A stretch of DNA of 64,000 nucleotides from Ruditapes philippinarum. Its lineage: Eukaryota. Shown piece by piece: positions 1 through 63,400 of this stretch. The position numbers are program-made. Each line of letters begins with the position of its first letter. Position 1 is the stretch's first letter. The stretch lies in assembly GCF_026571515.1 (NCBI RefSeq), contig NW_026859959.1:248001-312000 (forward strand), read 5' to 3'.

Positions 1-3000
1 AAAGAAATAAATAAATTCACCATTTTATCCTTCATTAGAAAACGTTTATGAGACGCGATAATTAGACTTTCATTAGGAATAAGAATAACCAGAGAGTCAC
101 ATTTGTTTATAATTTATAATTATTTTAAACCTTTTGTGCAGTATAAAAGATTGAAGGTTTATATATTGACAAAAATATAAGTCATATAAACTGCTGTGTA
201 CATGATTAGAATGTAACAAGATAAGATACGAAGAAATACATACGGCATAGTACTTATATTAAAGCAAAGCAATGGATTATTTTATCGGTTCACTATCCTT
301 TCATCCAAATTTAACATACAAACAAGAAAAAGGATATTGTTGGTTTATGTCTCAATCTCAATCACCTACTTAAACTGCAGTCCTATTACTCTTTAAACAA
401 CCATCGTATTACATTTGAAAAAAAGGACTGTATAGTAATTATCAATATCAATATTCTCAAACATCAAATTTAAGTTATAATATATCTTTACACCAAGTAA
501 TATATTTCAAAGTAGATTTAAGGCTTGGAAAAAATGTTCTCTTGAATGTTTGTTTGTTTGTTTTGTTTTTCTTTATTTGCTTATTTAAAAATGATAATTG
601 CAGTTACTGTACGCAATGTAAGAAATCGAAATCCGACGGCCCCATTTTAAAGCATTAATGATGCATTTATATTATGTGAGACTTATAACCTGTTACAATT
701 TGTAATTTCTGCGATATAATAAATTTTTTTTGTAATAAATGTTGAACAAACAGATTTATAGATTCCTGTGCAAGATCAAGTCATCTTTTTACTTTTAGAT
801 ATACAGGTATTAAACAGGTATTTCCTTATAATTATTATTTTGAAAGATCATTGATTGAAGATTACAAAATTGTATAACCTTTGATATTTTTTTTTGAATT
901 GATGTCTCAAGTATTTAAACTTTTATTTATCGCTATACATGGTCGTTATATTCGTCATATCTCATATTACCAATCATCATATTACCAATTATCATATTAC
1001 CAATTATCATATTACCAATTATCATATATTACCAATTATCATATTACCAATTATCATATTACCAATTCATCATATTACCAATTATCATATTACCAATTAT
1101 CATATTACCAATCATCATATTACCAAATCATATTATCATATTACCAATCATCATATATTACCAATTATCATATTACCAATCATTCAATGTTTGTTCTTCT
1201 TCACTGCCAAATATACAGTGTGCTTCTATATTCTTTGGAATATATTTATTATATTATTATATTTTATTATATTATATTTATAATATTAAAATATTTATTC
1301 ATTGATTAAATGTTTATATTGCTTGATTTTAGAGTACATATATTTTATATTAATATAGCAATACGCGACACATACACACTATAAAGACTGAAGTGTATTG
1401 TTTATCAAGAATTATTTGAATACAAATACACCTGTGATTTGCCTAAATAAAATAATTGGAGGCTTCGGAATTTTCACATCCGTTTTCAAGTTCGTTTACT
1501 AAAATCATTTGAAACCCAAGCTAGTTAATAAAACACACACACATACATTGAATCAAAGATATTTGTCTCTCACCGTTGATCCAGAAATTGGTGAGACTAG
1601 TAGTCGGTCATTTGAGGAGACATATGTAATTACTGGTTAGTTATCCAGGAAAAGCGGCTAAGCAGATCAATCGCCGAAATGTGACCAAACAACTGTGTTA
1701 TAAAACTGGTAGAAAATCTGACAAAGAAAAACCAATCATCTTCAATTTACCTTGATAATTTGGAAATTGGGTAAAATCCTGTAAACGTTTAAGCAATAAG
1801 AATTCCAGAAAATGTGTTGTAAAGGTCATTTTCAACACGAATTAAATCGTAAACACGCGAGGTACCCTGAGTAGCATATGCTGCCTCGCCTTGTTGTAAG
1901 GGAGTCAACATATCTACAGTTTGACACGAGAGGTGATGCGGGTAGAAACGCGCCCAACTATATAAATTCCCGTCTCTGCGAATTGCCAAGTCAATATCAT
2001 ATCCTACAAGACAGAGCTGTAATACGAAATAGTAAGTTCCAGTAACTGGAGCAATAAAAACACCCGTGTAGTTATCATAGGCATTGCCGTTGTTTTCAGG
2101 TATGTTTGTAAATATGAATTTTGCACCACCTTCTTGTTTTGTCATCGAAGGATCTTTAGATCGAAAGAAAACGCCTTTGGATTTCCACGAACCTAATGTA
2201 AAAGAAATATAGTAAATATTAGGACGCAGTTTTATATTGTATACATTTTTACATGACATATTAATGAACTTGGATAGCAAAAAAAAAAAAAAAAAAAACA
2301 ACAAAAAACAACACACATATGGAAATTCCACTGAGTTAAAATACCACATGTCTTCATATGACTCCAGCACTGAAAACGTTCAGGAAGCGGACTCTAGGAT
2401 GTTTCAAATAAGCATCAAGCTTTCTACATAACCGAGTTTTAAAATATATATGTTGCTTAAACCGGATCTAATTATAAGATAGTTGCTGTTAATCGTCTAA
2501 AATATTATTGGAATAAACTTTGAAGAATATTTTTAATCTCAACACATAATAGTAAAACCTACCATGATTAATGTCTCCGTTCAGCACTTTATATTTATGA
2601 ACTTTTAGTCTAATATCCGTTCTGTCATCTTTTAGTTTATGAATCATTCCCCCAACCTCTCTCTCTGCTTCTTTCAAAACTTTATTTTCCTTTGGTGGAA
2701 TTTTTCTCTTTAGTCCAAAGTAATGTTGCAGCCAGTCGAATTCTTTACTTTTCAAATCTTGGAGATTTTTTTCCACTTTATTTCTCACTTTGATCATTTC
2801 TTGCTTCACTGTCTTTGCTAAATATTCAAGTTGTGTCACTGTGCCTATAAAATCCTCCTCTTGATTCGCAAAGGAACAGTCACAGACACATAATACAAGC
2901 AAAAGTGTCACGCAATACATCATTTTTAATTTGTGGACGGGCACATTGTCTAAACAAATTCATATATTTTGACTAGTAAATATTCAGATCTAAAAACGTC

Positions 3001-60400: not shown

Positions 60401-63400
60401 ATATTTTTTTATTATTTGAACCTTTAAAATTAAAAATGATGTTTTGTATGATAACTTTGCTTGTTTTATGTGTCTGTGACTATTCCGTTCCAAATCAAGA
60501 GGGGGATTTGTTAGACACAGAAACACAACTTGAACATTTAGCAAAGAAAGTGAAGCAGGAAATGATTAAAATGAGAAATAAAGTGGATAAAAGTCTCAAA
60601 TATTTGAAAAATAAAGAATTTGACTGGCTGCAATATTACTTTGGACTAAAGAGAAGAATTCCAAAGGAAAATAAAGTTTTGAAAGAAGCAGAGAGAAAGG
60701 TTGGGGAAATGATTCATAAACTGAAAGATTACAGAACGGATATTAGACTAAAAGTTCATAAATATTAAGTGCTGATCGGAGACACCAGTCATGGTAGGTT
60801 TTGTTTAATGACATCTTGAAGCTGATAAAATTCTTCATAAGTTTATGCATTTAAGAATATGTCCCTTGTGCTATCTATGCACATCATTTTGATTCATGTC
60901 AATTAGCAGTGCCAATCTAGTTACCAGGTCTAGTAACTTAAAATAGTTTAAATACATTTATTTTAGCTCGTTCATGATAAAAGCTTGAAGCTTATTTGAA
61001 ACACCGTAGAGTGCGCTGCCTGAAACTAACTAGTGTGGAGGATTTATGAAAACACGAAGTCGTGATCATAGAAGACCTCGAACCTATGAACCCTTGGTTA
61101 AGAGGACGACACTTTTACCACCAAATCATCGTTCACTAGCTTTACTTAACTCTTTACTATTATCATACTATGAAGAGACTAGCTCCGTTGCATTTTCATG
61201 TTTTCTTCTTCTTATATTCAATTCAATAAATGTATCATGTAGAAAATATATCAAACCTCATTTTTTAAATATAAAAAAACCACTTTTGTTCGTAAATTTC
61301 GGATAGTTTCTTAATATTTAATCTGACTTTTTAACATCAGGTTCATCGAAATCCAAAGACGTTTCCTTTCGATCTAAAGATCCTTTAAAGACATATCTGG
61401 AAGGTGTTTTACAAACACGCATGTGAACAACGGCAATACGTATGATAACATCACTGGGGTTTTAATTGCTCCAGTTACCGGAACTTACTATTTCGTATTA
61501 CAGCTATGTCTTGGAGGAAATTATGTAGACTTGTCAATTCGCAAAGGCGATTATTTATATAGCTGGGCACGTTTCTTCCCATATCATTTGTCGTGTCAGA
61601 CAGTAGATATGTTGACTCCGTTACAAAAAAGGTGATGAAGTGTATGCTTCCAAGACATCCTCTTGGGATTACAATATAATGCATGTCGGCAATGACCTTT
61701 ACAACACTTTCTCTGGAGTACTTATTGCTTGAACTGTTTATTCTAAAGTTCCAAATTATCATTATGTCATTCCGGGATACAAGGACTTTCCTCACGTTGT
61801 ACGTTGTATTACACAGCCAATTTACCGGATTATACTAATACAAGCTAACTTGTATTAATTATACATGCATACAAATTTAAATGATATCGTAGTATGTATT
61901 TCAATCTTAAAGTTAGGGTTTTCGTGCCGTTTGATATAATACAGTTAATTTGACCTTATTATCAAAAGTATATTTGATTAAACAATAAAAACAGTTGAAC
62001 CAGAATATGACTTTGACATTTTTAATTCATTTGGGATACCTATATTGTCATCTATAGGATGATAATGGTGAACACTTCAAAGCTATTAACAGTTTTAATC
62101 AGGCAAATCATATAGTTATTTTTTACGTATCTATTAAAAAAATTCGTTATTCCTGCTAGAAAGATAATTCATGTTTGTGTTTCATAAAAGGTTTTAAGTT
62201 TAATTATTTAAAAGGGAAAAGGTAAGCAAAGAGATAAATATCATTCAGTCGTTAATACGTTCATGCCTCACTGGTTTCAAGCACAAGAATATGCATTTTC
62301 AGTTGTTGTTGTAATTATATGGATTATCGGTGACGACCAAAACTGTGACACAATTAATTTCTTTTCTTACCCTATCCCTACTTAATAATCGAACTTTTAA
62401 CTTTTGATAAAAAACAAACCTTTATGTTTGAGAATTAAATGCATATAATTACAATGAAATGTTTTTTAATATTAGTTTTGAAATTCCACATTTTAACTCT
62501 TCTCTAGATCTCATGCAAATAGATGAGCACAAATATTATCTTTTATTATATACTCATAAATGAAATATTGAGAAATATTGATGAAATAAAATGCGTATTT
62601 TCATTTTCTGTATTTTCACTGTAAAAATTTATTTTTCACTGCAGTGAAACATATTTTCCGTATTTTCACTGGTGTCTTGCCGGACTACTTTCTTTTAAAT
62701 TCTGCCAGTACACAAAATTTAAGGGAAAGTCTTTTAAATTTTAATGTCAAAAAAGAGAAAAATGTATATAATAAATAGATGTATATAATAAATAGAAAAT
62801 TCACGTTTTTTCTATAAATACATGATTTATTTTCATCTTGTGGCATGAAAATTACCATATTTCACTCGTGGCTACCGCCACTCATGTAATATTTATTTTC
62901 ATACCACTCGATGAAAATAAATCATGTATTTATAGAAAAAACTTGAATATCCTCTATGAGATACATCATTTTTATTTTACCCATCAACAATAATATTTGA
63001 AGTTAGCAGGAGTGGATTAAAGGGGCAATATGCCCTGTAACACCGCATGGCCAATGTGAACTTATTTTGACTTTCATCTGTTTCATCACTTTGGGGTCAA
63101 ACGCACTTTGGTGTCAAAGTTTGACACCAAAATGCGTTATACAGGTTCATATGCATATCTTGACATCAGACAAAAGTAACATACTTTGGGGTCATAAAAA
63201 TTGAATAAATAAGATCGAATTATAGTGATATTTTTAAATAATATCTTGTACTTGATGCCAATCGTAAAACGAAGTAGGCTAAATGTATTACGTGTGCTAA
63301 CAATAGCAGACGATTGATTGTTTTAATTTGTTGTATCTAATGGTTGCAATTTATTATGGTTATAATATTCAATTAATTGTCTCATAGGATATTATCTTAA

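What the first reader, a model, noticed from the sequence alone, without database searches (positions are those of the whole stretch)
1789..61732. Four-subfamily coiled-coil/C1q gene cluster under rapid birth and death
Seen: 11 copies or fragments in the order A1(-) B1psi C-fragment(-) A2 B2 A3psi D1 D2psi D3psi Cpsi(-) A4psi; only 4 are intact. All complete copies share a two-exon signal/coil + gC1q design. Known: bivalves have greatly expanded C1qDC pattern-recognition lectins, and gC1q domains trimerise. Inference: the co-duplicated B-C-A modules may encode chains of a heterotrimer (as with clustered vertebrate C1qA/B/C), giving a combinatorial recognition system.
[Added by the scan's program, not by the reader: the finding's places include an assembly gap (unread letters, written N; its length is only estimated) at 46674 to 46985, 48525 to 48685. 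Whether the letters on both sides are continuous or in frame is not known: test that first.]
Basis: partly seen in the sequence, partly recalled or inferred. Interest (0 to 1): 0.72.

Follow-up and report, generated by a model that had tools for sequence, protein, structure and literature searches.

The report
Decaying tandem cluster of C1q lectin genes
This stretch holds eleven copies or pieces of secreted C1q-type immune lectin genes of four kinds, only four still readable, which is the ordinary way such gene families grow and decay in bivalve-like genomes and gives no real sign that the kinds work together as one mixed protein.

Summary
Four subfamilies are real: 68-95% identity within them, 24-34% between them. 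A1, A2, B2 and D1 are intact. Each has an ATG, a hydrophobic N-terminus, a helical heptad-periodic exon 1, a GT..AG phase-1 intron and a gC1q exon 2. Both C copies are wrecks, and no signal-like start was found for C. The N gaps lie between D2psi and D3psi and touch no exon.

This is the published "sC1q-like type II" C1qDC architecture in a tandem and segmental duplication cluster, already described for oysters and clams (PMC6835236, PMC8905726). Decay runs through point lesions, deletions and an 11.8-kb retroelement-filled replacement.

The heterotrimer idea has no specific support. Only one module holds B, C and A together, C is dead twice, and copy numbers are unbalanced. A mixed A2-A2-B2 head model passed (0.86 against control 0.00), but such a pass is expected from likeness to solved gC1q trimers. 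New member of a known kind, low interest.

The parts
1789..2923 (-). A1, intact. Exon 1 is 2923..2563 (signal-like N-terminus plus helical tail). The intron is 2562..2193 (GT..AG, phase 1). Exon 2 is 2192..1789 (gC1q, stop TAA 1791-1789). Exon lengths sum to 254 codons.
   Evidence: (C1q E 4.4e-12)
5128..6345 (+). B1psi. The block is 91.6% identical to 22759-23942. Exon 1 is 5619-6059 and carries a TAA, a 2-bp deletion, a 1-bp insertion and a 3-bp insertion. Homology to B2 stops inside the intron at 6345. Exon 2 and the last ~130 bp of the intron are missing.
6346..18181 (.). An 11.8-kb stretch that replaces the B1 exon 2. It holds a (TAA)n run at 6417-6478 and non-LTR-type reverse-transcriptase fragments on the minus strand at 6917-9543, read in several frames. 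It also holds an LTR retroelement at 9519-17102, with 1245-bp LTRs at 98.8% identity, TG..CA ends and ATAT on both flanks. That element carries gag, zinc knuckle, RT and RNase H, but only the first 31 residues of the integrase zinc domain.
18182..19102 (+). Remnant of the B1 3' flank, 84.5% identical to 24504-25416, the sequence that starts right after the B2 stop codon.
19121..19493 (-). C fragment. 19178-19493 matches 58774-59092 (the 5' region of C, 80%) and 19121-19164 matches 58005-58048 (the 3' flank of C, 91%). It is a C copy whose gC1q exon and intron, about 0.7 kb, were deleted. The remaining coil-like ORF has a stop.
20244..21785 (+). A2, intact. Exon 1 is 20244-20601 and exon 2 is 21382-21785 (stop TGA), with a GT..AG phase-1 intron. 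Exon lengths sum to 253 codons. The intron carries a 238-bp SINE-like insert at 21010-21247 that the other A copies lack.
   Evidence: (C1q E 2.5e-14)
23238..24502 (+). B2, intact. Exon 1 is 23238-23676 and exon 2 is 24090-24502 (stop TAA), with a GT..AG phase-1 intron. Exon lengths sum to 283 codons.
   Evidence: (C1q E 4.7e-12)
27068..28362 (+). A3psi. Exon 1 is 27068-27424, with a 1-bp deletion near 27310, and the donor GT is changed to AT at 27425-27426. Exon 2 is 27959-28362, an open frame 95% identical to A2 at protein level.
31884..39842 (+). D1, intact. Exon 1 is 31884-32199 and exon 2 is 39418-39842 (stop TGA). The GT..AG phase-1 intron is 7.2 kb, swollen by repeats. Exon lengths sum to 246 codons.
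   Evidence: (C1q E 2.6e-15)
43108..45337 (+). D2psi. Exon 1 is 43108-43420, open, with a 3-bp in-frame deletion. Exon 2 starts at 44912 and has two 1-bp deletions, near 44936 and 45277.
46674..48685 (.). Two assembly gaps, 46674-46985 and 48525-48685, in the spacer between D2psi and D3psi. They touch no C1q exon.
52372..55365 (+). D3psi. Exon 1 is 52372-52687, open. Exon 2 starts at 54938 and its single visible lesion is TGG changed to TAG at 55264-55266.
58005..59092 (-). Cpsi. The gC1q exon at 58083-58507 is read in three frames (HMM positions 6-31, 38-85 and 89-135). Coil-like pieces lie upstream to about 58864. No signal-like start was found.
60436..61732 (+). A4psi. Exon 1 is 60436-60793, with a TAA near 60766. 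Exon 2 is 61341-61732, with a 13-bp deletion near 61407 and a 1-bp insertion near 61625.

Best explanation
The region is a tandem and segmental duplication cluster of secreted, collagen-less C1q-domain genes, the 'sC1q-like type II' architecture of signal peptide, coiled-coil tail and one C-terminal gC1q head. Four diverged subfamilies derive from one two-exon ancestor with a phase-1 intron between tail and head. Multi-gene blocks were copied, most simply by unequal crossing-over: B with A, C with A, and D three times on its own, plus one inverted A. Copies are then lost by nonsense and frameshift mutations, loss of a splice donor, internal deletions, and a retroelement-filled replacement of one exon.

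Shown: the anatomy, the domain identity, the fold, the lesions and the block homologies.

Inferred from family knowledge: each intact gene (A1, A2, B2, D1) gives a secreted chain that trimerises through its gC1q head with help from the helical tail. The trimer would act as a soluble lectin-like pattern-recognition molecule, with homotrimers as the default form. The head evolves faster at the protein level than the tail.
For: - Domain: C1q Pfam hits above cutoff in 6 of 6 exon-2 ORFs tested.
- Relatives: PDB sequence hits to C1q, adiponectin, C1QL and cerebellin heads.
- Fold: the AF2 model of the A2 head has pLDDT 85.6 and 10 strands. Its best PDB matches are gC1q trimers, TM 0.78, probability 1.00.
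- Gene design: identical in A, B and D, with GT..AG and a phase-1 split codon.
- N-terminus: hydropathy 2.7-3.8.
- Tail: 3.5-3.6-residue hydropathy period in all 6 exon-1 peptides tested. At exactly 3.5, A2, B2 and D2 beat all 1000 shuffles. A1, D1 and D3 did not (222, 104 and 87 of 1000 shuffles reach them) but peak at 3.6. There are only 2-5 Gly, so no collagen repeat.
- Tail model: B2 exon 1 folds as helices 26-48, 55-78 and 90-142, at low confidence (pLDDT 55.6).
- Block homologies: 5128-6345 with 22759-23942 at 91.6%; 18182-19102 with 24504-25416; 19178-19493 with 58774-59092; the A blocks at 85-89%.
- Selection: Ka/Ks is 0.11-0.73 in all 17 exon comparisons. Nonsynonymous change is higher in the head than in the tail for A1-A2 (p=0.0004) and D1-D3 (p=0.02).
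- Literature, passages read: type II makes up 55% of 476 C. virginica C1qDC genes, in tandem clusters with two-exon paralogs and episodic positive selection (PMC6835236). M. mercenaria has 408 genes, 40% type 2 and 46.1% tandem (PMC8905726).
Against: - The organism is unknown. No eukaryotic sequence collection was open, so 'bivalve' is inferred from the architecture alone.
- No expression data exist, so the 'intact' genes may be silent.
- Signal peptides were judged by hydropathy only, and coiled coils by periodicity plus one low-confidence model.
- Three exon-1 peptides are not significant at exactly 3.5 residues.
- Some pseudogene calls rest on one or two single-base lesions (A3, D2, D3). 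Their Ka/Ks against intact paralogs is as low as 0.17-0.24 for A2-A3, so they could be very recent null alleles or assembly errors. The intact count could be anywhere from 4 to 7.
- The trimer interface predicted is not significantly more conserved than the rest of the head. For A2 against A1 it is 37 of 46 against 57 of 87 identical, p=0.11.
- Ligands and immune role are untested.
Confidence: 0.8

Rival explanations
1. Chains of different subfamilies, encoded side by side and duplicated together, assemble into heterotrimers as vertebrate C1qA/B/C do. The cluster would then be a combinatorial recognition system.
For: - Different subfamilies are interleaved and were copied in blocks (B with A, C with A).
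- A2 and B2 are both intact, on the same strand and 1.45 kb apart.
- C and A lie head to head, about 1.0-1.6 kb apart, which would suit shared regulation.
- A model of two A2 heads with one B2 head passed: score 0.86 against a best control of 0.00. The mark was reached by 51 of 78 solved complexes and 2 of 108 mismatched pairs. The runs agree in at least 88% of contacts, and the partner pLDDT is at least 87.
- Homo- and heterotrimers are both known in the C1q family (passages in PMC6409975 and PMC10672478).
Against: - The pass is what likeness to solved gC1q trimers would give. In the tool's own trials close cousins of a true partner passed 10 of 12 times, and no homotrimer comparison could be run.
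- Both C copies are dead. Intact copies are A 2, B 1, C 0, D 1.
- D multiplied alone, and A1 sits alone and inverted.
- Only one of the three modules holds B, C and A together.
- The tails share no similarity at tblastn E<=1e-3 and differ in length: 97-98, 124 and 83 residues.
- Between A2 and B2 the interface residues are no more alike than the others: 11 of 44 against 28 of 83, p=0.42.
- Block duplication copies neighbours regardless of function.
- Two full-text searches (C1qDC with heterotrimer, C1qDC with heteromer) listed no paper reporting a bivalve C1qDC heteromer. I read listings and two sets of passages only.
Confidence: 0.1
2. Most of the 'pseudogenes' are not dead genes. They would be assembly or consensus errors, or null alleles of one haplotype, so the cluster is a mostly functional array and the birth-and-death picture is overstated.
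For: - A3 has one 1-bp deletion plus one donor change, D2 has two 1-bp deletions, and D3 has a single nonsense codon.
- Their coding divergence from intact paralogs still looks constrained: Ka/Ks is 0.17-0.24 for A2-A3 and 0.17-0.37 for D1-D3.
- The scaffold has gaps, so it is a draft.
- Presence-absence variation of C1q genes is reported in mussels (passages in PMC7653742 and PMC10514466).
Against: - B1 has lost an exon and has 3 further lesions.
- A4 has 3 lesions, including a 13-bp deletion.
- Cpsi needs three frames, and the C fragment has an internal deletion of about 0.7 kb.
- None of these four can be single-base errors.
- The A3 deletion removes a G between A and T runs, and the donor change is a substitution. 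Neither is a typical homopolymer error.
Confidence: 0.25
3. The intact proteins are not immune lectins. They would serve another extracellular role known for C1q-domain proteins, such as shell-matrix or adhesion and signalling functions.
For: The gC1q fold serves many roles. One listed paper reports a pearl-oyster C1qDC involved in shell formation (PMC7806589; title and abstract seen in the listing only). Nothing in the window speaks to ligand or tissue.
Against: Most characterised bivalve C1qDC proteins are described as PAMP-binding lectin-like molecules (passages in PMC6835236 and PMC10672478). Faster protein change in the head than in the tail fits a recognition surface under changing demands, but it does not prove one.
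Confidence: 0.15

Closest known systems
Tandem clusters of sC1q-like type II C1qDC genes in the Eastern oyster Crassostrea virginica (Gerdol, Greco, Pallavicini 2019, PMC6835236; abstract and passages read)
   Same: Signal peptide, coiled-coil tail and one C1q head with no collagen. Two coding exons with conserved splice sites. Paralogs in tandem arrays, attributed to unequal crossing-over. The head diversifies after duplication.
   Different: This window interleaves four deeply diverged subfamilies (24-34% identity) in one 60-kb array, and most of its copies (7 of 11) are damaged. Ka/Ks here is below 1 in every pairwise exon comparison. I ran no site-wise test of positive selection.
C1qDC repertoire of the hard clam Mercenaria mercenaria (PMC8905726; passages read)
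   Same: The sC1q-like type 2 form is the most common (40% of 408 genes). Tandem (46.1%) and segmental (10.5%) duplication are both reported.
   Different: I cannot say whether the window comes from this or any other clam. No locus-level comparison was possible, because figures and supplements were not available.
Vertebrate C1QA-C1QC-C1QB gene cluster encoding the C1q heterotrimer (solved heads 1pk6 and 2jg8 appear among the hits)
   Same: Several diverged gC1q chain genes sit side by side. The head fold is the same. A mixed-head model is geometrically acceptable.
   Different: There is no collagen stalk, only 2-5 Gly in exon 1. The tails are unrelated and of different lengths. There is no fixed 1:1:1 gene set, and one 'chain' (C) is dead in both copies. 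No evidence of obligate co-assembly was found.
Cerebellin and C1q/TNF-related proteins (CTRPs), collagen-poor C1q family members that form homo- and some heterotrimers
   Same: They are secreted, trimerise through the head, and paralogs can co-assemble (stated in passages of PMC6409975).
   Different: The tails are unrelated, and sequence identity of the heads is only about 20-27%. No orthology is implied.

Membership tests
C1q domain (gC1q, Pfam PF00386; C1q/TNF superfamily) | Sequence match to the C1q domain profile above the curated cutoff (23.7 bits) | tested here: met
   46.7-57.2 bits in 6 of 6 exon-2 ORFs given: A1, A2, A3, B2, D1 and D2. D3, Cpsi and A4 were matched by my own HMM only.
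C1q domain (gC1q, Pfam PF00386; C1q/TNF superfamily) | Ten-stranded jelly-roll beta sandwich | tested here: met
   The AF2 model of the A2 head has pLDDT 85.6 and 10 strand elements. Foldseek's best hits are C1QL1, adiponectin and collagen VIII/X NC1, with TM 0.74-0.78 and probability 1.00. Only A2 was modelled.
C1q domain (gC1q, Pfam PF00386; C1q/TNF superfamily) | Assembly of three heads into a trimer | tested here: inconclusive
   The mixed A2x2+B2 model scored 0.86 against a control of 0.00. This may reflect memory of solved gC1q trimers.
Bivalve 'sC1q-like type II' C1qDC (nomenclature used in PMC6835236) | N-terminal signal peptide | tested here: inconclusive
   A1, A2, B2 and D1-D3 have a hydrophobic 10-residue window of 2.7-3.8 within the first 25 residues. 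No signal-peptide predictor was available. None was found for C.
Bivalve 'sC1q-like type II' C1qDC (nomenclature used in PMC6835236) | Coiled-coil tail instead of collagen between the signal and the C1q domain | tested here: met
   The best hydropathy period is 3.5-3.6 in 6 of 6 exon-1 peptides. Three of the 6 beat all 1000 shuffles at exactly 3.5. There are 2-5 Gly, so no Gly-X-Y repeat, and 35-41% charged residues. B2 exon 1 is modelled as long helices at low confidence. COILS, the program used in the paper, was not run.
Bivalve 'sC1q-like type II' C1qDC (nomenclature used in PMC6835236) | A single C-terminal C1q domain ending the protein | tested here: met
   There is one C1q match per gene, reaching profile position 125-127 of 127 within a few residues of the stop.
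Bivalve 'sC1q-like type II' C1qDC (nomenclature used in PMC6835236) | Bivalve origin | not testable with these tools
   No eukaryotic genome or protein collection was open.
C1q-like type I / vertebrate C1q heterotrimer | Collagen (Gly-X-Y) stalk before the head | tested here: not met
   The exon-1 peptides hold 2-5 Gly in 82-124 residues.
C1q-like type I / vertebrate C1q heterotrimer | Three different chains, each required, encoded by a stable linked gene set | tested here: not met
   C is broken in both copies. Intact copies are A 2, B 1, C 0, D 1. Only 1 of 3 modules holds B, C and A.

The most novel reading that the evidence does not exclude
The neighbouring intact A2 and B2 chains, and formerly C, which lies head to head with A, co-assemble into mixed trimers through their gC1q heads despite unrelated coiled-coil tails. 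Block duplication of mixed modules would then multiply recognition specificities combinatorially, giving an invertebrate parallel to C1qA/B/C that arose without collagen.
Probability: 0.1. Interest if true: 0.6.

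Novelty: new member of a known kind. Interest (0 to 1): 0.25.

Why it matters
The window is a clear, small worked example of how the large C1qDC lectin repertoires of bivalve-like genomes turn over. Blocks of unlike paralogs are copied together, the heads diverge faster than the tails, and most copies die within a Ks of 0.1-0.5, one of them through retroelement-associated loss of an exon.

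That is useful for annotation. Seven of the eleven copies would inflate gene counts if called by domain hits alone. It does not change what is known about the family.

It would matter more if mixed trimers were shown, because that would add a combinatorial layer to invertebrate innate recognition.

Tried and rejected
- ESM Atlas look-alikes for the A2 and B2 exon-1 tails gave no usable hit.
- Pfam on exon 1 gave only sub-threshold coiled-coil-like matches.
- Pfam on 10 further ORFs outside the copies found 0 families, so no other gene was seen in the window.
- ARAGORN and Rfam at gathering score found nothing. The SINE-like insert in the A2 intron stays unclassified.
- The first Ka/Ks script dropped codons after indels. 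It was replaced; only its intron distances are used.
- Interface against non-interface conservation, as a handle on homo- or hetero-assembly, showed no significant difference in 4 of 4 comparisons.
- I looked for a C remnant between B2 and A3, and for a B remnant before Cpsi. None appeared at blastn word 9, E<=1e-4.
- I looked for a signal-like start for C and found none.
- The exact ends of the non-LTR element around the LTR insertion could not be fixed, and its supposed endonuclease part has no Pfam match.
- The genome-contig scan was not used, because it holds prokaryotes only.

Full report
**What is there.** The window is AT-rich, with G+C about 31% of called bases, and has two N gaps at 46674-46985 and 48525-48685. 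Stop-to-stop ORFs, tblastn of exon peptides against the window, and a purpose-built gC1q HMM run without filters on every six-frame piece of 15 aa or more agree. There are nine gC1q exons and nothing else below E=0.7. With two exon-1-only remnants that makes eleven copies or fragments.

Pfam C1q (PF00386) is above its curated cutoff in 6 of the 6 exon-2 ORFs I submitted. None of the 4 exon-1 ORFs reaches any cutoff. PDB sequence searches with the A2 and D1 heads return C1q, adiponectin, C1QL, cerebellin and caprin-2 heads (28 and 30 distinct chains at E<=0.01). An AF2 model of the A2 head (pLDDT 85.6, ten strands) superposes on solved gC1q trimers at TM 0.74-0.78. On HMM columns, identity is 68-95% within A, 75-77% within D and 24-34% between subfamilies. 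The tree separates A and D with support 0.93-1.0, while the B-C join is unsupported at 0.36. Four subfamilies is a fair description.

**Gene design.** DNA alignments of the paralogs and motif coordinates give the models below.

| Gene | Exon 1 | Exon 2 | Codons (sum of exons) |
|---|---|---|---|
| A1 (-) | 2923..2563 | 2192..1789 | 254 |
| A2 | 20244-20601 | 21382-21785 | 253 |
| B2 | 23238-23676 | 24090-24502 | 283 |
| D1 | 31884-32199 | 39418-39842 | 246 |

Every model has GT..AG and a phase-1 split codon at the same place, between tail and head, so the four kinds descend from one two-exon ancestor. The codon counts come from adding exon lengths.

Exon 1 starts with a hydrophobic stretch (10-residue hydropathy 2.7-3.8). 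It continues as a charged (35-41%), Gly-poor (2-5 Gly) segment whose hydropathy is periodic at 3.5-3.6 residues in 6 of 6 peptides. At exactly 3.5 residues, A2, B2 and D2 beat all 1000 shuffles, while A1, D1 and D3 do not (222, 104 and 87 of 1000 shuffles reach them). B2 exon 1 alone folds as long helices at low confidence (pLDDT 55.6). For C the design cannot be confirmed. The gC1q exon needs three frames, the upstream region has only coil-like scraps, and no M followed by a hydrophobic segment exists upstream of either copy, although the same scan finds the A1 control.

**Lesions.**
- A3: a 1-bp deletion in exon 1 and donor GT changed to AT. Exon 2 is open and 95% identical to A2.
- A4: a TAA in exon 1, and a 13-bp deletion plus a 1-bp insertion in exon 2.
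- B1: a TAA, a 2-bp deletion and a 1-bp insertion in exon 1.
- D2: two 1-bp deletions.
- D3: one TGG changed to TAG.
- C fragment: keeps both flanks of C (19178-19493 matches 58774-59092; 19121-19164 matches 58005-58048) but lacks the roughly 0.7 kb between them, including the head exon.

B1's homology to B2 ends in the intron at 6345 and resumes at 18182, which corresponds to the base after the B2 stop codon. The exon is therefore replaced by 11.8 kb. That stretch holds non-LTR-type RT fragments on the minus strand and an LTR element at 9519-17102. The element has 1245-bp LTRs at 98.8% identity, TG..CA ends and ATAT on both sides, and it carries gag, zinc knuckle, RT and RNase H with only the start of the integrase. 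In all, 4 of the 11 copies are intact.

**The gaps.** Both lie in the D2psi-D3psi spacer, 1.3 kb after one exon and 3.7 kb before the next. No exon or real reading frame crosses them. The D2 3' flank is homologous to the D1 and D3 flanks up to the edge of gap 1, and that homology is not resumed afterwards. Continuity across the gaps cannot be shown from the window, and a hidden copy cannot be excluded. None of the eleven calls depends on the gaps.

**History.** Self-comparison shows three related blocks.
- X1: B1, C', A2.
- X2: B2, A3, with no C trace.
- X3: Cpsi, A4, with no trace of B or its flank.

Besides these there are a separate triplicated D unit and an inverted A1. NG86 estimates exon by exon give the Ks values below.

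| Pair | Ks |
|---|---|
| B1-B2 | 0.07 |
| A2-A3 and A2-A4 | 0.13-0.17 |
| A1-A2 | 0.24-0.36 |
| Among D copies | 0.24-0.50 |

Intron distances are 0.14-0.16 for A2-A3 and A2-A4. Ka/Ks is 0.11-0.73 in all 17 comparisons. Heads carry more nonsynonymous change than tails (A1-A2 p=0.0004, D1-D3 p=0.02, D1-D2 p=0.07). This is turnover, but 'rapid' cannot be calibrated here.

A3, D2 and D3 have only one or two small lesions and low Ka/Ks against their intact paralogs. They therefore died recently, are null alleles, or are assembly errors. The other four damaged copies are beyond such doubt.

**The heteromer idea.** In its favour:
- Unlike kinds are interleaved and were copied together.
- A2 and B2 are intact neighbours.
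- C and A lie head to head.
- A model of two A2 heads with one B2 head passed: 0.86 against a best control of 0.00. The mark was reached by 51 of 78 solved complexes and 2 of 108 mismatched pairs. The runs agree in at least 88% of contacts, and the partner pLDDT is at least 87.

Against it:
- The pass is what likeness to solved gC1q trimers predicts. The tool's own note says a pass does not tell which family member binds, and no homotrimer comparison could be run.
- C is dead twice, and gene numbers are unbalanced.
- D multiplied alone.
- The tails are unrelated and of different lengths.
- Interface residues are no more alike between A2 and B2 than the other residues are.
- Block duplication needs no functional link between neighbours.

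I put the heteromer idea at about 0.1.

**Comparison with what is known.** The architecture and its tandem expansion are in print. In C. virginica, 55% of 476 C1qDC genes are 'sC1q-like type II' (signal, coiled coil, C1q). They lie in tandem clusters of two-exon paralogs attributed to unequal crossing-over, with episodic positive selection (PMC6835236; abstract and passages). In the hard clam there are 408 genes, 40% type 2 and 46.1% tandem (PMC8905726; passages). C1q genes are subject to presence-absence variation in mussels (PMC7653742, PMC10514466; passages). A review notes homo- or heterotrimeric heads across the family and coiled coils in several mollusc C1qDC proteins (PMC10672478; passages).

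Searches for C1qDC with heterotrimer (21 papers, 15 listed), with heteromer (5 papers), and with pseudogene and clam (4 papers) listed nothing on bivalve C1qDC heteromers or on pseudogene-rich clusters. I read listings and a few passages only, and supplements were closed.

**What stayed unchecked.**
- Species identity, orthologs and synteny.
- Expression.
- Signal-peptide and COILS predictions.
- Site-wise selection.
- All full-length (joined) analyses.

**Verdict.** This is a new member of a known kind, of low interest.

Noticed in passing
window 2563-2923 versus 27068-27424 and 60436-60793; 1792-2192 versus 27959-28359 and 61341-61729: A1 has a mosaic history. Its exon 1 is much closer to A3 and A4 at synonymous sites (Ks about 0.15) than its exon 2 is (Ks 0.45-0.47), with Fisher p about 0.005. 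The intron is barely alignable. This suggests gene conversion or exchange limited to exon 1.
   Followed up: partly
window 21010-21247: A 238-bp insert is present only in the A2 intron. It contains a tRNA-B-box-like GGTTCGAATCC and looks like a SINE. It occurs once in the window, and ARAGORN and Rfam do not recognise it.
   Followed up: partly
window 9519-17102: A young LTR retroelement sits next to or inside non-LTR RT fragments at 6917-9543(-). Its LTRs are 1245 bp at 98.8% identity, with TG..CA ends and ATAT on both flanks. It carries gag, zinc knuckle, RT and RNase H, but its integrase is cut after 31 residues of the zinc domain. It is much younger than the gene duplications.
   Followed up: partly
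window 32200-39417: The D1 intron is 7.2 kb, against 1.5 kb in D2 and 2.25 kb in D3. It contains a collinear internal duplication (32231-34992 matches 37357-38413) that starts 32 bp after the donor. This could be a remnant of a further partial D copy without its exon 1.
   Followed up: no
window 35371-35862, 44032-44369 and 62572-62941 (inverted): A repeat of about 300-370 bp at 70-79% identity is shared by the D1 intron, the D2 intron and the region after A4psi in the opposite orientation. It is an unclassified dispersed element.
   Followed up: no
window 58848-60436 and 19253-20244: C(-) and A(+) lie head to head, with about 1.6 kb and 1.0 kb between their presumed starts. The shared intergenic stretch is itself duplicated (19626-19959 matches 60015-60355). 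This may be a bidirectional promoter region.
   Followed up: no
window 962-1180: A 15-bp minisatellite with 13.9 copies at 87% match lies just beyond A1. It produces three long spurious ORFs.
   Followed up: no
window 46437-46664 and 56721-56962: The D-unit 3' flank homology in D2 runs right up to the first assembly gap and does not resume after it. The gap may hide the rest of the flank or more.
   Followed up: partly
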